Assembly: GCA_024682255.1 (NCBI GenBank)
Contig: GCA_024682255.1_4716.1
DNA: 64,000 nucleotides
DNA from: a phage
Reading direction: 5' to 3' (one strand)
Positions 11,876 to 30,290 of the stretch are shown piece by piece (positions within the stretch are counted from its first letter, which is position 1; each line of letters starts with the position of its first letter). Made by a program: the position numbers and the translations under genes. The notes beneath the pieces are model-generated. The model saw only the letters and a list, made by a program, of their open reading frames with translations, searched no databases and was not told where the DNA came from.

Positions 11876-12250
11876 TTAATCTTCGTTCCAGATGGCATCT
11901 TCCGGTGGAACAATAGGATCTTTCTTCGGCATTGATGGCACTTCATGACGATGCTTACGGAACTGCCTATCAATAACCTCACGAAGCCGGTACGCATCAA
12001 CCCATGTTGATTTATTGAACAGCTCCAACGTCACAGTTAGCCGTGTTCTCGACATTGAATAGCTTTTCTTTGCAATCAAATTGGGATAATTCAGTTGAGC
12101 GAACCACGCACGTATTTGTGCTTCGGTAAAAGCGATGCTGTAATAACTAAGTTTACCGTCATTAAAATCGTGCGCGTGGGTGTAGCGTCCAGCGTAACGC
12201 CAGACAAGATGCACATTCAGATCGATCCATGGTGGGGTGGTATCAGCCAT
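11876..12250 (-). CDS. Hypothetical protein (124 aa)
   Basis: ORF at end of minus operon, followed by bidirectional hairpin. Confidence 0.55.
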   Translation of the reverse strand: MADTTPPWIDLNVHLVWRYAGRYTHAHDFNDGKLSYYSIAFTEAQIRAWFAQLNYPNLIAKKSYSMSRTRLTVTLELFNKSTWVDAYRLREVIDRQFRKHRHEVPSMPKKDPIVPPEDAIWNED

Positions 12251-12259
12251 GTGTTACCC

Positions 12260-12829
12260 TCAACGATTCTTCATCACTTTACCTAGGCTTTCGATATTAT
12301 CCCAAAAGCGATTTTTACTTGGCGCATCACCGACGATAACCGACATCAAATCACGACGTTCACGACTGATGATGCCTTGTGATTTCCAGATCACCATCGT
12401 CCAGCAAGCTGCCAGAACGAACAGATGGTTAATGCTTGGTTTGGTTTGCGCAATGAACGCAAGCCATGCCCAGATACCGGTGTATACTATCGTCACTAAA
12501 AAGAGCGAGATTGTTGCAACGACAACAACGAAGTTTTGGACAGCGGGTTGATTCGCGTTATCATGAATAGCGGTAAGATCAGGAAGGTTACCTTCAACTG
12601 AACTCGTTTCATCGATTTCCAATTCTTCGATTTCTTTTCGTGTGTCAGGAGCTAATCCAGCATCATCGAGATGCTTTTTTAACCGCTGTATGCTTAATCG
12701 TTGACCGACAGGAATGTTGATGTTGTCGTAACTATTAAGCGCATCGACCAGGGAGCGTCCGTCAACGAGAACCAAGCTCGCGGTACCCATCGTTTGCGGT
12801 TTTATTTTGTAAAGGTCTTTTACTTTCAT
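12260..12829 (-). CDS. Membrane protein (189 aa), two predicted transmembrane helices
   Basis: Hydrophobic segments FVVVVATISLFLVTIVYTGIWAWLAFI and LFVLAACWTMVIW. Confidence 0.6.
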   Translation of the reverse strand: MKVKDLYKIKPQTMGTASLVLVDGRSLVDALNSYDNINIPVGQRLSIQRLKKHLDDAGLAPDTRKEIEELEIDETSSVEGNLPDLTAIHDNANQPAVQNFVVVVATISLFLVTIVYTGIWAWLAFIAQTKPSINHLFVLAACWTMVIWKSQGIISRERRDLMSVIVGDAPSKNRFWDNIESLGKVMKNR

Positions 12830-12850: not shown

Positions 12851-15463
12851 TTAAGCGTCCGGCGTAAAATCAAAAGGAATGTCCGTACGAATGATATCAT
12901 AACGTTTTCCGAGGAAATAGAACTCTTCGGGAACCTGGCCTGGAATGATGCTATCACCGATGAACTGCGGATACGCCCAGATGTACTGGGTGAGTCCTTC
13001 GAACATATCCAGGTTATTTGCGTGGTTGCCCATGATACGTTTCCAGAGTTCGCGTTTATACGGCGTTTTAACATCGAACCCATAAAGCGGTGCGAGGTCT
13101 TCACCAGGAACAAATCCCAGGTAATAGTGGATCTGACTAACTGGGAAACCAAGGGTATCTCGCGGAATGGTGATCGCTTGCTCAGCCTTGGTGACATGCG
13201 TCTCAATAATCCAGTCATAGCACTCTGAATAGAACCGATCGAATTTCTCTGGATTATACCACGCTTTGGGAAGATTGAGTTTCTCCGTGAACGCGTTCGA
13301 CATGATCGTCGGCAAGAACGGAAGAACGCCGGTTTTGATCTGCGTGTATTTCGATTTTACCCGGTTAACGAGATTCCAGCAACTGTATCCTAACTGTTCG
13401 TTACAAAACTCAACATAGAGATCGTAGTCACCACCGGATAACGGGTTGTTAATATCACCGATGTCTGCGGCGTATTTGTTGGGATATCGGTTATTGAAAG
13501 CCAGTTTGGTTTGGTAGTCGTAGATACACGGTTTGTTGTTCGCTGTATTGATCCACCACCAGGGTTCACCTACTTGTACACAAATGTCCTGGACATGAGG
13601 GTAAATGATATCAGCAAACGCGGTTAACACATCCCCTAACCACGTCATCGCCTGTTGGTTACATGGAGACAACAACCAAGACGGTGGCGTATATCCGGTT
13701 GCTGCGATGTTTCCTTCCCAATCCTGCTGCGCCCACTCGAACGGGCATGCGGTACTCATCAATTCGTAACTTAAACTGATGGTGACGGAGAAATGGTGTT
13801 TTGCAGCATATGCGGCGAAAGCTTCATGCCACGCGATACAGGCCGGATTTAATACATCCGTGGTGTTCACCAGTAACTTACCCGCACTTGGCGTCCAGAC
13901 AGTATCGTAGAAATGCGACATCCCAACATAATGCACTAATTCATCTTGATACCCCGCATAAACCAGGTTCTCAAATACGCGCTCCGGCGTGATGTTGTAA
14001 TGGTCATCATAAGCGGTTATCGCACGAAGTTCGTGTGGCGTACAGTGGTGGCGACTAACCGTCATTTCCTGATACACCCCATCGATAGGAAGAATCTCGA
14101 TGGTTAAACCGAGGTCGATTGGCGTTTCCAGATAGGTCGTTTCAGTCGCATCTTCCTTATAATGTCGAGAACTCATGCTGAACATCAACGACGTTACCGA
14201 TTCGAGTTCGATGGGTTCGTCAGCATAGAACCCCGCCATTGCGTCATTGAAATCGATCGTCACGATTGCGCTTCTACCGTCTTCAGAGACATCGGTCGCA
14301 TATCGGGTTAATGAGATATACTGACGGCTATCGTCTTTGTGTACGACGGTTAAAACCGGCGGGTGTTCGGTATCTGCAAAGTTACGCTGATCGCCAGTAA
14401 ACGTGACCTTCGCTTTAAAGATCAAACCGAGTAACGATGTCATGGGATCATACGCAATACATCCGTGATCCAGCGTATCCGTTGTCCGCCATTCTATCCC
14501 GACCAACCCGTTAGCGGTATGACATCGCATATACGCATTAAGTGTCATGTCCTCACTGACAACCGCGAAGTTCTCTGTTGACTGACCGTTGATAATCCAA
14601 TACATCGGTTGCCAGAGGTTACGCGTACCTTTTGCGTAGCGGTAGGTTGGTGCGCCTTTGGGGTTGCCATTATTAAGATGGAATACGGCAGTACCTTGAT
14701 AATGGTCGTTCGTATTAATCGGAACACTGTAAGCATCGCCGAGGTCCGTACGTTCCACCTTCGTGACTGTCGCGTTTTCAAATAACCCACGTAGCGCGGG
14801 TAAACCGATATCTTCCGGCGCGTTTTCTCGACGAATCGCATCCGCGATGCGGTGGGCTAAGGCGGGGTAAATGACCTCACCCTGTTGTAGGTTTGCAAGA
14901 CCTACAAAGCGATCGGGAGCGATACCAGCAATCAATAACTCGACATCACCCTTCGTTCTATCGTCGTTAAGATATTTCAGTCCGGTAAGGTCAAGATGCT
15001 GAATAAGCGACAACAGGTTGTATTTACGGTTTTCAACAGTTAGTACAAGATCGCCCGCCCAAACCAAACTTCCCTCATCCGCTGTTACTTTAACGGATTG
15101 TCGGCCCGTGGTAGACGTTGTTGTCGTTTTATTTAATTGTCCTTGTAGGAAGTCGGTTGCGAGGTCAAAGGCGATACCGTAACGGTCAGCGACCGCTTGC
15201 ATGATTTCACGTAACTGGGTATCTTCTTCAATGATAATCTTGACAGGTATTCCCAAGAACGCTTTAGCGAGGTCTCGTTTAACCAACGAGACGAATACGG
15301 ATTTGTAGTATCGGCTTCCATCTTTCCCTTTAAAAAGAATGGAGGTTGTTTCGGGTGCCGATAGAACACGTGCAAATACAACATCGTCGGAAGTAAGAGA
15401 AAGTCCGTTTTTCTCGTTGACCAATCTTAGTATTTCATTTTGCGCGGTTTCATGTAACTTCAT
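12851..15463 (-). CDS. Large receptor-binding or tailspike-like structural protein (870 aa) with shared N-terminal anchor module
   Basis: N-terminus shares RD(I/L)AKAFLGIPVKI and DRYG(I/F)(A/V)FD motifs with 21250-21777 and 62527-end products; position in tail fibre cluster. Confidence 0.6.
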   Translation of the reverse strand: MKLHETAQNEILRLVNEKNGLSLTSDDVVFARVLSAPETTSILFKGKDGSRYYKSVFVSLVKRDLAKAFLGIPVKIIIEEDTQLREIMQAVADRYGIAFDLATDFLQGQLNKTTTTSTTGRQSVKVTADEGSLVWAGDLVLTVENRKYNLLSLIQHLDLTGLKYLNDDRTKGDVELLIAGIAPDRFVGLANLQQGEVIYPALAHRIADAIRRENAPEDIGLPALRGLFENATVTKVERTDLGDAYSVPINTNDHYQGTAVFHLNNGNPKGAPTYRYAKGTRNLWQPMYWIINGQSTENFAVVSEDMTLNAYMRCHTANGLVGIEWRTTDTLDHGCIAYDPMTSLLGLIFKAKVTFTGDQRNFADTEHPPVLTVVHKDDSRQYISLTRYATDVSEDGRSAIVTIDFNDAMAGFYADEPIELESVTSLMFSMSSRHYKEDATETTYLETPIDLGLTIEILPIDGVYQEMTVSRHHCTPHELRAITAYDDHYNITPERVFENLVYAGYQDELVHYVGMSHFYDTVWTPSAGKLLVNTTDVLNPACIAWHEAFAAYAAKHHFSVTISLSYELMSTACPFEWAQQDWEGNIAATGYTPPSWLLSPCNQQAMTWLGDVLTAFADIIYPHVQDICVQVGEPWWWINTANNKPCIYDYQTKLAFNNRYPNKYAADIGDINNPLSGGDYDLYVEFCNEQLGYSCWNLVNRVKSKYTQIKTGVLPFLPTIMSNAFTEKLNLPKAWYNPEKFDRFYSECYDWIIETHVTKAEQAITIPRDTLGFPVSQIHYYLGFVPGEDLAPLYGFDVKTPYKRELWKRIMGNHANNLDMFEGLTQYIWAYPQFIGDSIIPGQVPEEFYFLGKRYDIIRTDIPFDFTPDA

Positions 15464-16127: not shown

Positions 16128-16304
16128 GGTCTTGTCCTATACGTTGGTGGTTGAAGTGGCGGATATCGGATGCATGCTGGACGTGAACCCTATAGTTCGC
16201 GCTATCGCCATTTTCTACCTCGTTTCTATTCTCAAAAAGGAAATTTCATACGATGACGCCATAGCAGCTCCTCCTTCCCTGACGGGTTGGAGGAGCATAC
16301 TTAA

Positions 16305-16811
16305 TTACTTACTGATAACCTCAACGGAGTTGGGATCAGCGATCAATGCACGGTCGGTAGAACAATTGAAGAAGACCATCCCAACACCATCGCCGTTCGA
16401 GTTCAGGGTCGAACTTGCGTAAGACAATGTTGGTTTGTTCATGCGGTAGAAGCGTTCGCTGGTTGCGGTATTGAACCCCAGGTCAACGTAGTCTTTCACC
16501 GTGGTATACAACTGGGTGGACTCGAAAACGGTTACCGGAGAGTCAACGGTAAACTGACTGCCTTCATCCACAACCAGAACTTTATCGTTCCAGATTTCAG
16601 TGGTTGAGAACTTCGGTTTCCAATGTTCGAATTCCTGGGTTGCACCCCAGCAAGAATACACAGCGAGATTGCTGTTCTTCTCAACAGGTTTTAACCCCAC
16701 CAGTTGCGTCAGGTCTTTATCCAGGTTCGGTAAACCTTCCAGCGTAGCACACCCACCCAGAGAAAGCACCATCAACATACCAAGAACGATCGCGCAAAGT
16801 TTCTTTGTCAT
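16305..16811 (-). CDS. Lipoprotein (168 aa); candidate superinfection-exclusion or receptor-masking factor
   Basis: Signal peptide plus lipobox MLMVLSLGGC; located between Tfa and receptor-binding protein genes. Confidence 0.6.
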   Translation of the reverse strand: MTKKLCAIVLGMLMVLSLGGCATLEGLPNLDKDLTQLVGLKPVEKNSNLAVYSCWGATQEFEHWKPKFSTTEIWNDKVLVVDEGSQFTVDSPVTVFESTQLYTTVKDYVDLGFNTATSERFYRMNKPTLSYASSTLNSNGDGVGMVFFNCSTDRALIADPNSVEVISK

Positions 16812-16852
16812 CGGATTTCCTCATGTGTTAACGGGAGTGATTTCCATAGTAA

Positions 16853-17269
16853 TTACACAGTTGTAGGAAATTCCGGCCAATCGATATTTGGTGCAGCATC
16901 GGTATCGACAGCAGTCACCGCATCAGTGTAATCCAAAACAGCATTAAGTCGGGTCGTTTCTTCCGGAGTCAGTTTTCGCCCAGCCCGTAATTTTAACTGA
17001 ATAAGATCGATGGAAGCCAGCGCAGAATCAATCAAAGATTGTTTTATCTGTTCTGCTTCGGCGACGAGATCTTCGTGTTGCCGCTCGGGTTCCGGAGGTG
17101 CGGTAAACTCACCATTTGAGTATGACCAACCTATTCCAGGTGACACAGCCTCCTTATCGTCGATATGAACCAACTGCTGATTGTCGAATATATCGAGCTC
17201 TGCTTCACCATCGTAAACAATCGTGTTTACTACCACTCCATTTTCAATAACAGCGTATAATGTACTCAT
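16853..17269 (-). CDS. tfa: Tail fibre assembly chaperone (Tfa; lambda Tfa / P2 gpG family)
   Basis: C-terminal motif TPEETTRLNAVLDYTDAVTAVDTDAAPNIDWPEFP typical of Tfa; ATG overlaps fibre stop (TAATG). Confidence 0.8.
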   Translation of the reverse strand: MSTLYAVIENGVVVNTIVYDGEAELDIFDNQQLVHIDDKEAVSPGIGWSYSNGEFTAPPEPERQHEDLVAEAEQIKQSLIDSALASIDLIQLKLRAGRKLTPEETTRLNAVLDYTDAVTAVDTDAAPNIDWPEFPTTV

Positions 17270-20200
17270 TACATAAACTCCTCGATGATGCAAATCCCAT
17301 TAGCACCGCGCCCACCAGGCTTAGCGGTTCCTGAGTAAGAGTTATCGTAAGCAGCACCACCACCCGAACCAGGCGCGAGGCCGTTATGGGCGGTGCCGAC
17401 ACCAGCACGGCCGCCACCGCCCCAATATGACGCACCCCCACATCCACCGGCGGCAAGAGTACCGGCTTGTCCATCGCTACCGTCTCCGCCCGGAATGCGT
17501 ATATCCCCGGTAGTAGGTACGCCCCCATAGCCACCGCCAGTGTTTGTGACAGTTGTTTTTCCTGCGCCTTGCCCGCCGGGAGCAGTTAGCAGGGATGCAA
17601 ATTTACTATCTCCACCCCCGTTCCCATTCGTCGCCCCAGAGCCACCGGAACCACCAGAACCAATTATAACAGAATAACTAGCAGCTGCTACCGTTATAAC
17701 CGAAATTACTGTTCCGCCAGCTCCTCCTCCAGCGCCAAAAAACGTTTCGCTGTTGGAATAAGCCTGACAACCGCCACCGCCACCGCCACCACCGGTTATC
17801 GTTACTCTAATCCGTTTTGTTCCTTGTGTTGGGGTGTACGTCCCTGACGATGTGAAAACACGCATATTCAGTAAACGCCCGACATATCCACTAGAATCGG
17901 CTAAACCAAGATCTTTAGCTGCTAACGTGATATTAGCCGTACCGTCGAAAGGTTTACCGTTAATCGTGCGCGCAGTTTGCAGCTTCGTCGCCGTTGCTGC
18001 GTTCCCTGATGTATTCTGGTTCCCCGCGGCGTTAACACCTGGTAGATTGATGTTCGCACTACCGTCGAACGCGACACCACCGATCGTCCTTGCTGTTTGC
18101 AGTTTTGTCGCCGTGGCGGCATTACCGGTCGTGTCTTGGTTACCGGTGGTGTTTACCCCAGGCAGGTTGATATTTGCCGTTCCGTTAAATGAGACACCAC
18201 CAATCGTCCTTGCCGTTTGCAACCTCGTTGCGGATGCCGCATTCCCCGTGGTGTTTTGGTTACCTGTTGCATTCACACCTGGGATACTATCCTTAGATGT
18301 GTAGATCTGTGCCCATTCCGACCAGTTCGCATCGGTTGAATCACGACGTGAACGTAAATAAGCTGGAGCGTGTGCACCTGAGGTACCTGACCACCCAATG
18401 AGGATTTCGCCTTCGCCGACCGATGAAGCACCTTTAAGATGAACAATGTTGCCGTAGGCTGTAGGGTATCCGTTATTGTACGCTTCATACATCTGGATAC
18501 CCGTGTTGCTGCCCTGGGTCGCATTAGCTAAAGCGGTGACCCGTCCTTTGGAAGCGAGCACGTTAATGCTAAAGCTAATATCGGTTGTACCGTCAAAGGC
18601 GACCCCGTTAATCTTCCGTGCTGTTTGGAGTTTCGTGGCAGTAGCCGCATTACCAGAGGTACTCTGATTACCTGCTTTGTTCACACCCGGTAAATCAATG
18701 TTGGCTGTTCCATCAAAGGACACGCCCCCTATGGTTCTCGCTGTCTGGAGTTTTGTTGCTGAACCAGCGTTTCCGGAAGTGCTTTGATTACCTGCCGCGT
18801 TGACACCTGGTAGGTTAATGCTAGCAGAGCCATCAAAAGAAACTCCGCCGATCGTGATCGGTGTTTTCAATTTCGTGGCTGTCGCGGCGTTACCCGTCGT
18901 ATTCTGATTGCCAGCCGCATTAACGCCTGGTAATGCGATATCGGTCGTACCATCGAACGCAACACCACCGATTTTACGGGCGGTCTGTAGCTTGGTCGCT
19001 GTAGCCGCGTTGCCGCTGGTATTTTGCGTGCCCGCTTCATTTACGCCTGGTAAATCAATGTTCGCAGTACCATCAAAAGAAACACCCCCGATGGTTCTCG
19101 CGGTCTGCAACTTCGTTGCACTTCCTGCGTTTCCGCTGGTGCTTTGATTTCCCGCTGCATTAACACCTGGTAGACTGATGCTGGCTGAACCATCGAAACT
19201 CACACCACCGATCGTAACAGCGGTTTTCAATTTCGTGGCGGTTGCTGCGTTACCGGTTGTATTTTGGTTGCCTGTCGCATTCACGCCAGGTAATGCAATA
19301 TCCGCTGTTCCGTCAAAGGCAACGCCACCGATTTTACGTGCAGTTTGTAGCTTGGTTGCACTAGCAGCGTTACCGCTGGTATTCTGGGTGCCTGCTTTGT
19401 TAACACCGGGGAGATCGATGTTAGCAGAACCATCGAAGCTGACGCCACCTATCGTTCTTGCGGTAGCGAGTTTAGCTGCTGTGGCTGCATTATTACCCAC
19501 TTTCAGCCAATCATCCCATGGACCATCCTGGCCGTTCCATGATGCCGTTAAACTACGTACGTAAATATTGCCGGTACGTACAGTGTAACGTTGCGTTCCA
19601 CCGAATTGCCCGGTTGGGAGCACTTCAATGTAACCTGCGGCGTTTGCTTCAGGGAAATTGTGGGCGATGTCCGCGTTCGTTGTTACTGGTTTAGACCAAA
19701 TACCAACAGACGCTTCGACTGGGCCGAAGGTATTCAGATTTGCGTCTATCGCCATAGCGCCATTAAATTTCAGGTATGTCTCTGGCGATAATCCGATCGT
19801 TTTAGCAAACGCAGCTTTATCTACGATATCACTACCGTTATTCCCTGCTTGCAACGCCGTCTTAGCTGCCTTTATGGTTTCGGTCAATCCAAGATATTGT
19901 AAGATCGCATCAACGCTTCCTTTGTTTAGCAGATTCAGACCTGTTGACGTTACGTTAGTTAGTCCGATTTGGTTCCGTCCAGTAAAATAAGGGAGTTTAT
20001 TCGCTTCTGTTGTTAGGTTAGACCACGCAGTCAACAACGCGTTCAAAGGCTGTTTACCCGCCAACGCATTGGTTACTGTCGTTGCGAAATTAGGATCGTT
20101 CCCTAAAGCTTGAGCCAGCTCATTAAGCGTATTTAGCGCTTCTGGAGACGAGTCGATCAGCGATGCGATAGCGCGCATCACAAATTCCGTGTTGGCAATC

Positions 20201-21243
20201 TGTCGACTGCTATCGTTCTCTGCAGCCGTAGGCGCTGCCGGGATACCGGTGAACACGGGGCTATTAAGATCTGCCTTGAGCGCGATGAGACGTTTAAGTG
20301 CGTCGACATCGACTTTCAGGTTTTCCCACCCGATGAGAGAACCACCACTGCTGGCATGATAACGGTTATACCAGAAGTCACCGTTAATGCCTAAAAAGAA
20401 TATTCCCTTCTCTTCGTTTTGTGGGCCAGAACTGTTCCGTGACGAGCTGATGTAATTGATTTCAATAAGACCGGTAAACGTCACTCCTGGAATTATTTTA
20501 TTGTCTCCAGCTGACTGTGATACCTGGTAAATCCCCGGGGTTGCGGCTTTAACCCATGTTAAGAATTCTGTTACTCCAGCGGTGCCGCTAAAATTCTTAA
20601 CGTCGGTAAGTATTGCCCCATAACCGAACATACCGGGTAGAGCCACTCGTCCGCTGGTACGGTCACGAATATCTGTTACAACAACGGGCAATTGTTTACG
20701 AACGGCATTAACCGCTTTAGGCGTGGCCGATTTTGTCTCGTCGTCGCTATCGGTTGCATTACTTAGAATAGTTAAACCGCGTGTAGCAGTAGTTGCATCA
20801 GGAAGAAATGCGTTATCCAACACCTTAAGCTGTACTGCACTCGTATTACTAACAACGACATGCACTTGACAGTTAAGAACGCTGGTTGCGCCTTCGGCAG
20901 GCGTAGGCTTATATCTTTCTGGTGCACTGCAGACGGCAATCAGAACACCTTGATCATCATACAGACCGATCTCACGTACCCAGAACCCACCTTGACCAGC
21001 AGGAATAATACCCTCAACGATAATCCTGGTTGTGCTATCACCATCCGCATGGATATTAGAAACTTCCCCACGATAAACTTCGTGGACAAGCGCTGTTTGG
21101 CTGGCGGACGGGGTTGGGATCGAGCCGTTACCATCACCAACGGCAAAGTGTGTGATTTTTAGTTTCTCACCGTCGGGAAGTAACGCAGCGGTGATACGTT
21201 CTGCTCCTTTATCGGTAACTACCGTTATATATGCTGTACTCAT
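17269..21243 (-). CDS. Long tail fibre protein (1324 aa), P2 gpH / lambda Stf-like N-terminal domain, 40-aa tandem repeats, Gly-rich C-terminal domain
   Basis: N-terminal motifs AVGDGNG, GGFWVREIGLYDD, ETKSATPKAV, ALNTLNELAQALGNDPNFATT as in P2 gpH; about 11 repeats of ATKLQTARTIGGVSFDG..LPGVN.GNQNTSGNA; poly-Gly run at residues 1151-1158. Confidence 0.85.
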   Translation of the reverse strand: MSTAYITVVTDKGAERITAALLPDGEKLKITHFAVGDGNGSIPTPSASQTALVHEVYRGEVSNIHADGDSTTRIIVEGIIPAGQGGFWVREIGLYDDQGVLIAVCSAPERYKPTPAEGATSVLNCQVHVVVSNTSAVQLKVLDNAFLPDATTATRGLTILSNATDSDDETKSATPKAVNAVRKQLPVVVTDIRDRTSGRVALPGMFGYGAILTDVKNFSGTAGVTEFLTWVKAATPGIYQVSQSAGDNKIIPGVTFTGLIEINYISSSRNSSGPQNEEKGIFFLGINGDFWYNRYHASSGGSLIGWENLKVDVDALKRLIALKADLNSPVFTGIPAAPTAAENDSSRQIANTEFVMRAIASLIDSSPEALNTLNELAQALGNDPNFATTVTNALAGKQPLNALLTAWSNLTTEANKLPYFTGRNQIGLTNVTSTGLNLLNKGSVDAILQYLGLTETIKAAKTALQAGNNGSDIVDKAAFAKTIGLSPETYLKFNGAMAIDANLNTFGPVEASVGIWSKPVTTNADIAHNFPEANAAGYIEVLPTGQFGGTQRYTVRTGNIYVRSLTASWNGQDGPWDDWLKVGNNAATAAKLATARTIGGVSFDGSANIDLPGVNKAGTQNTSGNAASATKLQTARKIGGVAFDGTADIALPGVNATGNQNTTGNAATATKLKTAVTIGGVSFDGSASISLPGVNAAGNQSTSGNAGSATKLQTARTIGGVSFDGTANIDLPGVNEAGTQNTSGNAATATKLQTARKIGGVAFDGTTDIALPGVNAAGNQNTTGNAATATKLKTPITIGGVSFDGSASINLPGVNAAGNQSTSGNAGSATKLQTARTIGGVSFDGTANIDLPGVNKAGNQSTSGNAATATKLQTARKINGVAFDGTTDISFSINVLASKGRVTALANATQGSNTGIQMYEAYNNGYPTAYGNIVHLKGASSVGEGEILIGWSGTSGAHAPAYLRSRRDSTDANWSEWAQIYTSKDSIPGVNATGNQNTTGNAASATRLQTARTIGGVSFNGTANINLPGVNTTGNQDTTGNAATATKLQTARTIGGVAFDGSANINLPGVNAAGNQNTSGNAATATKLQTARTINGKPFDGTANITLAAKDLGLADSSGYVGRLLNMRVFTSSGTYTPTQGTKRIRVTITGGGGGGGGCQAYSNSETFFGAGGGAGGTVISVITVAAASYSVIIGSGGSGGSGATNGNGGGDSKFASLLTAPGGQGAGKTTVTNTGGGYGGVPTTGDIRIPGGDGSDGQAGTLAAGGCGGASYWGGGGRAGVGTAHNGLAPGSGGGAAYDNSYSGTAKPGGRGANGICIIEEFM
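17929..18291 (-). repeat. Coding tandem repeat block 2 (three 120-bp units) within tail fibre gene
   Basis: Three 40-aa repeat units at protein residues about 985-1105. Confidence 0.75.
18574..19491 (-). repeat. Coding tandem repeat block 1 (about 7.5 units of 120 bp, in 360-bp higher-order units) within tail fibre gene
   Basis: Residues about 585-890; units recur with period 40 aa and superperiod 120 aa. Confidence 0.8.
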
Positions 21244-28879: not shown

Positions 28880-29377
28880 TTACGTGTGTCGTCGTTTACC
28901 AAAGAAAATGTGACTGTCTACCACGGTGATATTGGTAGCATGTTTTCTGAAATGTTTAGGGCGAAGATGTTTCGCGTTAAAGAATACGGCTCCTCGTGTT
29001 GGGTCGGCTTTATGGTAAGCCGCAATGTCAATATAACGTAATGTTGCGACCTCTCGCGCTATTGCTCTTGCTCGCTCAAAAGCAGCATGATCGCGTATGA
29101 CAATACGCCTTTGTTTTGTCCAGGGGAATTGACCTCTTTGCAGTACGACGTCTTTGACGTTCGTAGGGAATCGGTAGTCCATAGATCGATTATGTATTAA
29201 AAACGCCACGGAGTATTGCCCTTTTACAGATTCGCCTCTGGCTTCCATATACACAGCACATGCGACGATCTCTTTCCGGCAATCGATTCTAGGTCCTGCG
29301 TTCACTGATGCTTGACTGAACGGTGTGATAAGCAACATAACAAGCCCTAAAATCAACGTGTGTAAAATACCTTGCAT
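28880..29377 (-). CDS. Secreted endolysin, SleB/CwlJ-like cell wall hydrolase (Hydrolase_2 family) with N-terminal signal peptide
   Basis: Signal peptide ending SQA-SV; motifs YMEARGES, VAFLIHNR, FPTNVKDVVLQRGQF, GAVFFNAKH matching SleB-type hydrolases; GAGGT RBS. Confidence 0.75.
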   Translation of the reverse strand: MQGILHTLILGLVMLLITPFSQASVNAGPRIDCRKEIVACAVYMEARGESVKGQYSVAFLIHNRSMDYRFPTNVKDVVLQRGQFPWTKQRRIVIRDHAAFERARAIAREVATLRYIDIAAYHKADPTRGAVFFNAKHLRPKHFRKHATNITVVDSHIFFGKRRHT

Positions 29378-29629: not shown

Positions 29630-29950
29630 TTAACCTCTACCGTCAAGCCATAGGTTGTATTTATCCCGAACATACGGATCGCGATAAATACGTCGATAGA
29701 CTTGATGTGGTATAAACTTGCAATGTACGAGTTCATCGCTTAATTTATGCCGTCGTTCCACACCGTTGTGAATACGACGTATCTCCCGGATATTAAAGGT
29801 TGTTTTATTCAAGAGAATAGACATAATGGCGGATCGATGATCCAGATTAAAGATCGCCATCACGCTTCGTATCTCACGTAAAACAACTTCTCTATCGACA
29901 AGGATGCGATTAGTTAACTTAAGATTCTCCGTGATACCCATAACCTTCAT
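29630..29950 (-). CDS. Hypothetical protein (start uncertain) in lysis region
   Basis: ORF 29630-29998 overlaps upstream membrane-protein gene; internal start assumed. Confidence 0.3.
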   Translation of the reverse strand: MKVMGITENLKLTNRILVDREVVLREIRSVMAIFNLDHRSAIMSILLNKTTFNIREIRRIHNGVERRHKLSDELVHCKFIPHQVYRRIYRDPYVRDKYNLWLDGRG

Positions 29951-30290
29951 CCTCGACACGTCGACACATCGGTAAAAATAAACACCAGCTTGTTGCACTG
30001 AGGATCGCCGTTGCGATGATATTTGCGATATCGCTCAGTCGGGCATCGACCTGCCACATAACAAGCATAAAAAGAACGTATGCGAACCCATACACGACAA
30101 ACCGTCTGATGTTACGCGTCGACCACGTACAAATATACAAAAGGGGAAGCTGCCCTATAACACAAACGATGGTTCGGATAACGTAATAAACGCGTTCCGT
30201 CGTTGTTTCAAAATCGATATTCGTTGCAGAAATCCCGATCATTATAAAAGTGAAAATGAAATAGATTTTTGCGTATGTCTTTAAACTCAT
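29919..30290 (-). CDS. Multi-pass membrane protein (123 aa), holin or antiholin candidate
   Basis: Three to four hydrophobic helices; adjacent to holin-like gene and upstream of endolysin. Confidence 0.5.
   Translation of the reverse strand: MSLKTYAKIYFIFTFIMIGISATNIDFETTTERVYYVIRTIVCVIGQLPLLYICTWSTRNIRRFVVYGFAYVLFMLVMWQVDARLSDIANIIATAILSATSWCLFLPMCRRVEDEGYGYHGES

What the first reader, a model, noticed from the sequence alone, without database searches (positions are those of the whole stretch)
16305..16811. Lipoprotein gene embedded between Tfa and receptor-binding genes
A 168-aa product with a lipobox (LSLGGC) sits immediately downstream of tfa, inside the host-recognition module. Phage lipoproteins at this position can act as receptor-masking superinfection-exclusion factors (as Llp does in T5), but this protein is larger and unrelated in sequence.
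Basis: inference. Interest (0 to 1): 0.5.

Follow-up and report, generated by a model that had tools for sequence, protein, structure and literature searches.

The report
Conserved jumbo-phage outer-membrane lipoprotein gene
A Goslar-like jumbo phage of E. coli encodes a real, very highly expressed lipoprotein next to its tail-fibre genes; it is probably sent to the host's outer membrane, its function is unknown, and a 2026 study lists it as an abundant "virion" protein without noting its export signal.

Summary
Window 16305-16811 (-) is a 168-aa ORF with a textbook lipoprotein signal (cleavage LSLGG|C21, Ala at +2). It lies 41 bp downstream of a Caudo_TAP tail-fibre assembly gene and upstream of DUF7941-type host-recognition genes.

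The window is a Goslar-like nucleus-forming jumbo phage, and the ORF is Goslar gp088 (99% aa identity). The family (PHROG 9559, unknown function) is small and restricted to jumbo phages. Every member keeps the lipobox Cys, a second Cys pair and an R-x-Y-R motif. dN/dS is 0.05-0.09. AlphaFold gives a tethered small all-beta barrel with no informative structural relative. The mature domain is unrelated to T5 Llp or Rtp45.

The gene stays near fibre genes in all lineages examined, but it is not swapped together with them; it diverges like a core gene. A terminator-like hairpin follows it everywhere.

A 2026 preprint finds gp88 at about 740 copies per virion in CsCl-purified Goslar. It is not in the cryoEM model, and the same sample contains OmpA, OmpC, OmpF, Lpp, chimallin and PhuZ. 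The SPN3US orthologue is absent from that phage's virion proteome.

Best reading: an exported, abundant envelope-acting lipoprotein, most likely for exclusion or progeny protection. The function itself is unproven.

The parts
16305..16811 (-). Lipoprotein CDS, 168 aa; orthologue of Goslar gp088 and SPN3US gp159; PHROG 9559
16752..16811 (-). Signal peptide, residues 1-20 (n-region MTKK, hydrophobic core, lipobox LGG preceding Cys21)
   Evidence: Sequence. The lipobox Cys is invariant in 13 homologues. The h-region diverges fast (dN 0.37 against L007) but stays hydrophobic.
16677..16751 (-). Cys21 (predicted acylation site) plus a linker of about 25 residues with low model confidence. The linker is strongly conserved among Goslar-like phages.
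   Evidence: pLDDT below 50 for residues 20-32; linker dN 0.028
16347..16676 (-). All-beta barrel domain, about residues 46-155. Invariant C54 and C150 (putative disulfide), D82/G84, S98, R120-x-Y122-R123, S134, G140-x-G142.
16816..16822 (-). Shine-Dalgarno-like GAGGAAA, 5-6 nt upstream of the ATG
   Evidence: sequence
16263..16301 (-). GC-rich stem-loop (GCUCCUCC..GGAGGAGC) starting 4 nt after the stop codon; terminator-like or mRNA-stabilising. An equivalent hairpin of unrelated sequence follows the gene in all seven lineages folded; six are strong and L012's is weaker.
16853..17269 (-). Tail fibre assembly protein (Caudo_TAP), immediately upstream
17269..21243 (-). Long tail fibre (P1 gpS-like, repeat-rich, Gly-rich C-terminus). 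Its distal part is GC-richer than the phage background.
15486..16127 (-). 213-aa protein (gp087-like) with no family match; about 19 copies in the Goslar virion MS
12851..15463 (-). 870-aa DUF7941 + NCTSP_N + TIM-barrel_NCTSP protein (gp086-like); candidate host-recognition protein
   Evidence: preprint text
12260..12829 (-). 189-aa membrane protein (gp085-like). It directly follows the lipoprotein gene in relative L005.

Best explanation
The gene encodes a precursor that is exported by Sec, lipidated at Cys21 by the Lgt/LspA/Lnt pathway and, because residue +2 is not Asp, sorted by Lol to the outer membrane. The mature protein is a disulfide-stabilised small beta-barrel of about 110 residues on a tether of about 25 residues. 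It is a resident, core-like gene of Enterobacterales-infecting chimalliviruses that is kept at the edge of the fibre/DUF7941 host-recognition module. It is transcribed as the last gene of a unit, with a hairpin right after the stop codon, and is made in very large amounts late in infection. It acts in the host envelope and is not a building block of the particle. Its presence in 'virion' preparations reflects outer-membrane material that co-purifies with the phage. The most likely job is exclusion and progeny protection: changing or occupying a conserved envelope component so that infected cells and lysis debris stop capturing phage. This would resemble Llp, Rtp45 or TraT in principle, but the target would be shared by all hosts and not the receptor of one particular RBP. 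Shown: the gene, the signal, conservation, synteny, purifying selection, abundance and the absence of homology to known exclusion lipoproteins. Inferred: lipidation, outer-membrane location, the disulfide, late expression and the function itself.
For: The lipoprotein signal is present and the lipobox Cys is invariant across 13 homologues down to 24% identity; none has Asp at +2. The signal-peptide core evolves fast but stays hydrophobic, while the mature part has dN/dS 0.05-0.09. C54 and C150 are invariant and lie on the first and last barrel strands. The gene lies beside fibre/DUF7941 genes in Goslar-like phages, L005, L006, L007, L011 and, within a few genes, SPN3US. A terminator-like hairpin follows the gene in all lineages folded, and it is monocistronic in SPN3US, Erwinia phages, L005 and L006. 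Abundance is very high: about 737 virion-equivalents, 15-160 times its operon neighbours gp086, gp087, gp089 and gp090. The same MS sample contains the host outer-membrane proteins OmpA, OmpC, OmpF, Lpp and Pal at comparable peptide intensities, plus known non-virion proteins. gp88 is not among the 28 modelled structural proteins. The SPN3US orthologue gp159 is not in the SPN3US virion proteome. The precedent for exclusion lipoproteins next to RBP genes is PMC9586334 and PMC12685063.
Confidence: 0.4

Rival explanations
1. gp88 is a true high-copy virion-associated protein, as the Goslar preprint lists it. For example, it could decorate the flexible DUF7941 'fibre cloud' or peripheral baseplate, which is not resolved by cryoEM. 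It would be either unprocessed or picked up from the envelope at lysis.
For: About 737 copies per virion-equivalent in PEG- and CsCl-purified virions, with 78% coverage and 209 spectra. It ranks among the top five unmodelled proteins, above gp22 (about 580). Its gene is always near DUF7941 genes. The fibre cloud is not resolved in the maps, so absence from the model is weak evidence.
Against: An invariant Sec/lipobox signal removes the protein from the cytoplasm, where virions assemble. The authors did not validate gp88 by GFP. The sample also contains chimallin, PhuZ, thymidylate synthase, the membrane protein gp085 and abundant host porins, OmpA and Lpp. The orthologue gp159 is absent from the SPN3US virion list.
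Confidence: 0.2
2. It is a lysis or peptidoglycan-related factor. One version: a periplasmic inhibitor of a muramidase, acting on the phage's own secreted endolysin or on the tail lysozyme of superinfecting particles, in the manner of MliC/PliC or T4 Spackle. The other version: an unconventional outer-membrane-disrupting component in a phage that lacks spanins.
Confidence: 0.2
3. It has some other envelope function that benefits a long or persistent infection, for example stabilising the outer membrane, binding a lipid or small ligand in a lipocalin-like barrel, or blocking an envelope-triggered host defence.
Against: It is purely correlative. There is no PADLOC, NCBIfam or Pfam match. It does not explain the constant placement beside fibre genes.
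Confidence: 0.15

Closest known systems
T5 Llp (FhuA-binding superinfection-exclusion lipoprotein; PMC9586334)
   Same: A phage-encoded outer-membrane lipoprotein with a classical lipobox. Its gene lies next to a receptor-binding gene, and it contains Cys residues compatible with a periplasmic disulfide.
   Different: There is no homology beyond the signal peptide. Llp has a mature length of about 61 aa, against about 147 aa here. Llp is an early gene transcribed divergently from pb5 and is specific for the RBP's receptor. This gene is not exchanged with the RBPs and appears to be expressed late and very abundantly.
Rtp45 / Cor-type exclusion lipoproteins of Drexlerviridae (LptDE-binding; PMC12685063)
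   Same: A small lipoprotein gene placed directly beside the RBP locus. Its proposed role is to prevent adsorption to infected cells and to debris after lysis.
   Different: hhalign gives no match (probability 11%, lipobox region only). Size and fold class differ, and these proteins track receptor specificity.
TraT (F-plasmid surface-exclusion lipoprotein; own knowledge)
   Same: A very abundant outer-membrane lipoprotein that interferes with envelope recognition events, including OmpA-dependent phages. This is a precedent for a high-copy masking lipoprotein.
   Different: It is plasmid-borne and unrelated in sequence (no Pfam TraT hit). This is an analogy from memory and was not tested.
MliC/PliC periplasmic lysozyme inhibitors (e.g. 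Brucella PhiA, PDB 7dpy) and T4 Spackle
   Different: No MliC Pfam match. No defining MliC/PliC motif was recognisable by eye in the alignment (motifs recalled from memory, not checked against a reference). Spackle is helical (own knowledge).
o-spanins (lambda Rz1 type) and u-spanins (T1 gp11 type)
   Same: A phage outer-membrane lipoprotein, and the only lipoprotein in a genome with no recognisable spanin.
   Different: It has a folded beta-barrel and not a short Pro-rich peptide. There is no partner i-spanin gene and no C-terminal transmembrane segment.
Goslar gp88 as reported in bioRxiv 10.64898/2026.04.21.720040
   Same: It is the same protein (99% identity). The preprint reports it as a high-copy virion-associated protein of unknown function, with an AlphaFold3 model shown.
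   Different: The preprint does not mention the lipoprotein signal ('lipoprotein' occurs 0 times) and did not validate gp88. The present analysis suggests an envelope origin.

Membership tests
Bacterial-type lipoprotein precursor (Lgt/LspA substrate) | Basic n-region, hydrophobic h-region and lipobox [LVI][ASTVIG][GAS]C, with the Cys at position 15-35 | tested here: met
   MTKKLCAIVLGMLMVLSLGG|C21. The PROSITE-like scan picks it as the only credible hit in the window and the only annotated CDS in Goslar. The Cys is invariant in the family.
Bacterial-type lipoprotein precursor (Lgt/LspA substrate) | Outer-membrane sorting (no Asp at +2, E. coli Lol rule) | tested here: met
   The +2 residue is A, S, K, V or T in all homologues and never D. 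The rule itself is established knowledge.
Bacterial-type lipoprotein precursor (Lgt/LspA substrate) | Actual acylation and signal-peptidase II cleavage | not testable with these tools
   In the stored part of Table S4 no CATLEG... or ATLEG... peptide is listed, while the next peptide DLTQLVGLKPVEK is. The rows that would show the precursor peptide are cut off.
PHROG 9559 (unknown function) | Profile match | tested here: met
   E = 2.9e-21 over residues 1-153
Llp / Cor / Rtp45-type superinfection-exclusion lipoproteins | Sequence homology of the mature domain | tested here: not met
   hhalign against T5 Llp aligns 17 signal-peptide columns only. Against Rtp45 the probability is 11%. No Pfam family matches.
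Llp / Cor / Rtp45-type superinfection-exclusion lipoproteins | Gene adjacent to the receptor-binding protein locus | tested here: met
Llp / Cor / Rtp45-type superinfection-exclusion lipoproteins | Specificity that tracks the RBP or receptor (co-exchange with the RBP) | tested here: not met
   In L007 the lipoprotein is 86% identical while the fibre tip and Tfa are replaced. In L005 and L006 it is 49% identical, like the core flanks (43-59%), with a different RBP set. Copies at least 90% identical occur in phages from E. coli, Shigella and Salmonella.
Llp / Cor / Rtp45-type superinfection-exclusion lipoproteins | Blocks adsorption or infection when expressed | not testable with these tools
   Needs a plating or adsorption assay.
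Spanins (o-spanin or u-spanin) | Adjacent or embedded i-spanin gene with an N-terminal transmembrane segment, or a C-terminal transmembrane segment in the same protein | tested here: not met
   The neighbours lack an N-terminal transmembrane segment, and the lipoprotein has no C-terminal hydrophobic segment.
Spanins (o-spanin or u-spanin) | Short, Pro-rich, largely unstructured periplasmic domain | tested here: not met
   A confident beta-barrel, block pLDDT 85-94 across about residues 41-150
MliC/PliC lysozyme inhibitors | Pfam MliC profile or motif match | tested here: not met
   No Pfam hit for any of 13 members at E <= 1
MliC/PliC lysozyme inhibitors | Eight-stranded barrel fold | tested here: inconclusive
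Virion structural protein | Reproducible presence in purified particles and in the particle structure | tested here: inconclusive
   The literature was checked; no new experiment was done. Goslar MS gives about 737 copies, but the protein is unmodelled and the sample contains outer-membrane and non-virion proteins. SPN3US gp159 is absent from the virion list.
DUF2846 (label on one Erwinia-phage orthologue) | Pfam profile match | tested here: not met
   No DUF2846 hit for that orthologue or any other member

The most novel reading that the evidence does not exclude
A lipid-anchored, Sec-exported protein is nevertheless a true high-copy component of chimallivirus particles. It could be acquired from the host outer membrane at lysis and coat the DUF7941 fibre cloud. 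Alternatively it could be carried into the next cell to act on membranes during entry, for example in formation of the early-infection vesicle. Either would be an unprecedented route of virion maturation for a tailed phage.
Probability: 0.1. Interest if true: 0.8.

Novelty: new variant of a known kind. Interest (0 to 1): 0.45.

Why it matters
Nothing is known about how nucleus-forming jumbo phages handle superinfection, progeny loss to debris, or outer-membrane disruption. A 2025 review of these phages does not mention spanins, holins, receptors or lipoproteins. This family is the only lipoprotein in Goslar, it is conserved across the enterobacterial chimalliviruses that are often found persisting in clinical and food isolates, and it is among the most abundant phage proteins in lysates. 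It is therefore a cheap and well-defined target: one clone, one knock-down and one fractionation would give an answer. It also flags a likely misassignment in a current virion proteome. If gp88 is envelope-derived, the 'high-copy virion protein' list for Goslar needs filtering for exported proteins.

Tried and rejected
1. Pfam, NCBIfam and PADLOC scans of the protein and of all 13 family members found nothing.
2. A profile search of PDB sequences gave only a borderline hit driven by the signal peptide (4peu, E 0.017).
4. An exhaustive phmmer search of 1.84 billion representatives gave 13 hits. The 4022-aa P0007 hit is a summed-repeat artefact of an RPA/OB-like tandem array, and P0013-15 match only the signal peptide.
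5. A candidate embedded 39-aa 'o-spanin' ORF inside the gp152-like gene was rejected because the host gene has no transmembrane segment.
6. A candidate promoter motif TATGGRAA upstream of the gene is not enriched in the window (2 found, 4.5 expected), and the upstream regions do not align across lineages.
7. I tried to deduce signal-peptide processing from the published 77.84% coverage. Several peptide combinations fit, so it is not decisive.
8. The Goslar RNA-seq supplement that would give expression timing is not held.
9. There is no match in complete E. coli genomes.
10. The sigma-70 promoter scan is uninformative for a phage that uses its own RNA polymerases.

Full report
**1. The observation**

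The minus strand carries an ORF at 16305-16811 that encodes 168 aa and begins MTKKLCAIVLGMLMVLSLGGCATLEG. It has every element of a bacterial lipoprotein precursor:
- two lysines in the n-region
- a 14-residue hydrophobic core
- the lipobox L-G-G-C with Cys at position 21
- Ala at +2, which under the E. coli Lol rule (established knowledge) means outer-membrane sorting

A GAGGA ribosome-binding site lies 6 nt upstream. A PROSITE-style lipobox scan over every ORF in all six frames finds no other credible lipoprotein signal in the 64-kb window.

The upstream gene (16853-17269) matches Caudo_TAP at E = 5e-20. It is preceded by a 1324-aa tail fibre. Downstream lie a 213-aa protein with no family match and an 870-aa protein with DUF7941 plus the N-terminal and TIM-barrel domains of the N4 gp65-type non-contractile sheath protein.

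**2. What genome this is**

The region is 95% identical in DNA to Escherichia phage Goslar, a nucleus-forming jumbo phage (Chimalliviridae). The ORF is the orthologue of Goslar gp088, at 99% aa identity.

**3. The family**

- tblastn finds weaker relatives (27-35% identity) in 53 further jumbo-phage records from Salmonella (SPN3US group), Erwinia, Proteus and Escherichia.
- In SPN3US the orthologue is gp159.
- Word-indexed and exhaustive HMMER searches of billions of proteins recover only about a dozen clusters. All come from jumbo-phage genomes or phage-like contigs, and none carries a functional name beyond an automatic 'Lipoprotein' label.
- The only profile match is PHROG 9559, of unknown function.
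- Pfam, NCBIfam and PADLOC are silent. The 'DUF2846' label on one Erwinia-phage orthologue is not reproduced.

In a 13-sequence alignment spanning 24-87% identity, the invariant residues are the lipobox Cys21, C54, C150, G84, S98, R120, Y122, R123, S134, G140 and G142.

dN/dS is 0.05-0.09 among Goslar-like copies. The signal-peptide core changes quickly (dN 0.37) but remains hydrophobic, which is how signal peptides evolve. The linker and barrel are tightly conserved.

**4. Structure**

AlphaFold2 with this alignment gives a confident all-beta domain; block pLDDT is 85-94 across about residues 41-150. A low-confidence tether precedes it. C54 and C150 lie on the first and last strands, so a barrel-closing disulfide is plausible. 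That is an inference and would fit a periplasmic protein.

- Foldseek against PDB finds nothing at E <= 1e-3.
- Against viral models it finds the orthologues and a few other phage 'lipoproteins'.

The fold does not identify a function.

**5. Comparison with known phage lipoproteins**

- hhalign against T5 Llp aligns the signal peptide only. Against the LptDE-binding Rtp45 there is no match. The protein is not a member of those families.
- It is not spanin-like. It is a folded barrel, no i-spanin-type neighbour exists, and it has no C-terminal membrane segment.
- gp088 is nevertheless the only annotated CDS with a lipoprotein signal in the complete Goslar genome, so Goslar has no canonical spanin.

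**6. Genomic behaviour**

Across lineages the gene stays beside fibre or DUF7941 genes:
- Goslar, the window and L008: fibre, Tfa, lipoprotein, gp087, then the DUF7941 protein gp086.
- L007: a different fibre plus a DUF4376 chaperone, then the lipoprotein.
- L006: the lipoprotein lies between two DUF7941 proteins.
- L005: it follows a gp092-like protein.
- L011: it follows two DUF7941 triplets.
- SPN3US: it lies a few genes from the DUF7941-related gp154 and gp155.

The gene is not exchanged together with these genes. In L007 it is 86% identical although the fibre tip and Tfa are replaced. In L005 and L006 it is 49% identical, matching the flanking conserved genes (43-59%), with no homologue of the fibre, Tfa or gp087.

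Copies at least 90% identical occur on Goslar-like contigs of about 236-247 kb in assemblies of E. coli, Shigella flexneri and several Salmonella serovars.

Its GC content equals the phage background, whereas the distal fibre is GC-richer. The lipoprotein therefore looks like a resident gene, and the fibre/Tfa cassette looks imported next to it.

In all seven lineages folded, a GC-rich stem-loop of unrelated sequence follows the stop codon within a few nucleotides. Six are strong; the L012 one is weaker. L005 and L006 also have one just upstream, and in SPN3US and Erwinia phages the gene stands alone between genes on the opposite strand. It is therefore a self-contained terminal transcription unit. 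I could not define a promoter.

**7. Published experimental evidence**

A preprint of April 2026 (bioRxiv 10.64898/2026.04.21.720040) determined the Goslar virion structure and ran label-free MS on PEG- and CsCl-purified particles.
- gp88 (YP_009820773) is listed among ten unmodelled proteins of unknown function present at more than 200 copies.
- Table S4 gives 20 peptides, 77.84% coverage, 209 spectra and about 737 (491-1158) copies per virion.
- The text never mentions a lipoprotein signal, and gp88 was not among the four proteins validated by GFP.

Five points weaken it:
- The authors state that chimallin, ChmC and PhuZ are also present and that the purification captured non-virion assemblies.
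- Thymidylate synthase (about 20 copies) and the membrane protein gp085 are also listed.
- The peptide table contains many peptides of host OmpA, OmpC, OmpF, Lpp, Pal and Skp. Single-peptide areas are about 1-2e5, against 3-5e5 for the best gp088 peptides. I identified these proteins from their peptide sequences using my own knowledge. Outer-membrane material is therefore a substantial component of that sample.
- gp088 is 15-160 times more abundant than the fibre, Tfa, gp087 and gp086 encoded around it, so it is not a stoichiometric fibre partner.
- In SPN3US, the orthologue gp159 is absent from the complete list of virion proteins, while its neighbour gp160 is prominent.

I could not decide from the stored part of Table S4 whether the signal peptide was detected.

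**8. Interpretation**

Well supported:
- This is a real, strongly constrained and very abundant phage protein.
- Its N-terminus is an evolutionarily maintained lipoprotein export signal.

Inferred:
- It ends up in the host outer membrane and acts on the envelope.

For the function I favour exclusion and progeny protection. The reasons are the constant neighbourhood of host-recognition genes, the abundance, and the precedent of Llp and Rtp45, which prevent adsorption to infected cells and to lysis debris. The target must be something shared by E. coli, Shigella, Salmonella and Erwinia hosts, and not the receptor of one fibre, because the gene does not follow RBP exchanges.

Three rivals remain open:
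- true virion association
- a lysis or muramidase-control role
- another role in persistent infection

The lysis rival rests on several observations. gp088 is the only lipoprotein in a spanin-less genome. The barrel is weakly MliC/PliC-like. In SPN3US-like genomes the gene lies near peptidoglycan hydrolase genes. The window's endolysin carries an export-type N-terminus.

For the persistence rival, Goslar-like and Seoul-like phages, which both carry this family, are the groups most often found persisting in bacterial isolates.

**9. Novelty and score**

The gene and protein are already in databases, and the protein is already in a published proteome, so the sequence feature is not new. What appears to be unreported:
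- It is an exported lipoprotein.
- It is a conserved family unrelated to known exclusion lipoproteins.
- Its 'virion' status is doubtful.

If it acts as proposed it would be a new variant of a known kind. Interest is moderate (0.45). The question is testable with simple experiments, but there is no functional evidence yet.

Noticed in passing
window 16263-16301 (-); L005 8570-8596; L006 8513-8538; L007 8523-8554; L011 8180-8215; L012 8462-8478; L002 9395-9433: A strong GC-rich stem-loop, different in sequence in each lineage, follows the lipoprotein stop codon within a few nucleotides. L005 and L006 also carry one just upstream of the gene. This looks like a conserved terminator or mRNA-stabiliser around an autonomous cassette.
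   Followed up: partly
window 28880-29377 (-) and 29919-30290 (-): The SleB/Hydrolase_2-type endolysin (Goslar gp098-like) starts with a hydrophobic segment, MQGILHTLILGLVMLLITPFSQA, that looks like a signal peptide or SAR domain. Two genes upstream, a 123-aa protein has about four predicted membrane segments and is a holin candidate. No spanin pair is nearby.
   Followed up: partly
window 12260-12829 (-) and 11876-12250 (-): The gp085-like 189-aa protein has a hydrophobic stretch of more than 30 aa (residues 94-128) and a charged C-terminus. Together with the gp084-like protein it follows the lipoprotein gene directly in L005, and in L006 after one inserted DUF7941 gene. This may be an ancestral three-gene block. 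gp085 also appears in the 'virion' MS at about 4.6 copies.
   Followed up: partly
whole Goslar genome (L009, L014-L018): gp088 is the only annotated CDS with a lipobox in the 237-kb genome, so no canonical o-spanin or u-spanin is present.
   Followed up: yes
window 17000-19500 (distal part of the fibre gene 17269-21243, and Tfa): GC content is 0.50-0.56, against 0.45-0.49 in the surrounding phage DNA including the lipoprotein gene. The fibre is only 78-88% identical to Goslar and L008, with length differences (1172 against 1324 aa) in its repeat-rich middle. This suggests an imported, repeat-variable P1 S-like fibre cassette.
   Followed up: partly
bioRxiv 10.64898/2026.04.21.720040, Table S4 (literature, not the window): The CsCl-purified Goslar 'virion' MS sample contains many peptides of host OmpA, OmpC, OmpF, Lpp, Pal and Skp, plus thymidylate synthase, chimallin and PhuZ. 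Copy-number calls for unmodelled proteins, especially exported or membrane proteins, should be treated with caution.
   Followed up: partly
P0007: A 4022-aa protein made of 26 near-identical RPA/OB-fold-like repeats scored E = 1e-35 against the lipoprotein through summed weak repeat matches. It looks like an artefact and not a relative.
   Followed up: partly
L002 9522-10037 (SPN3US gp158), L011 8218-8733, L012 13855-14373: SPN3US gp158 and its relatives beside the lipoprotein gene are Peptidase_M15_3-like (Pfam hit on the L011 copy at E = 7e-8; the L012 copy is 41% identical to gp158). Goslar has no homologue. In SPN3US-like genomes the lipoprotein therefore sits next to peptidoglycan hydrolase genes.
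   Followed up: partly
window 12851-15463 (-): The 870-aa protein combines a chimallivirus DUF7941 anchor module with the N-terminal and TIM-barrel domains of the N4 gp65 non-contractile sheath (receptor-binding) protein. This is a cross-family domain fusion in a myovirus.
   Followed up: no
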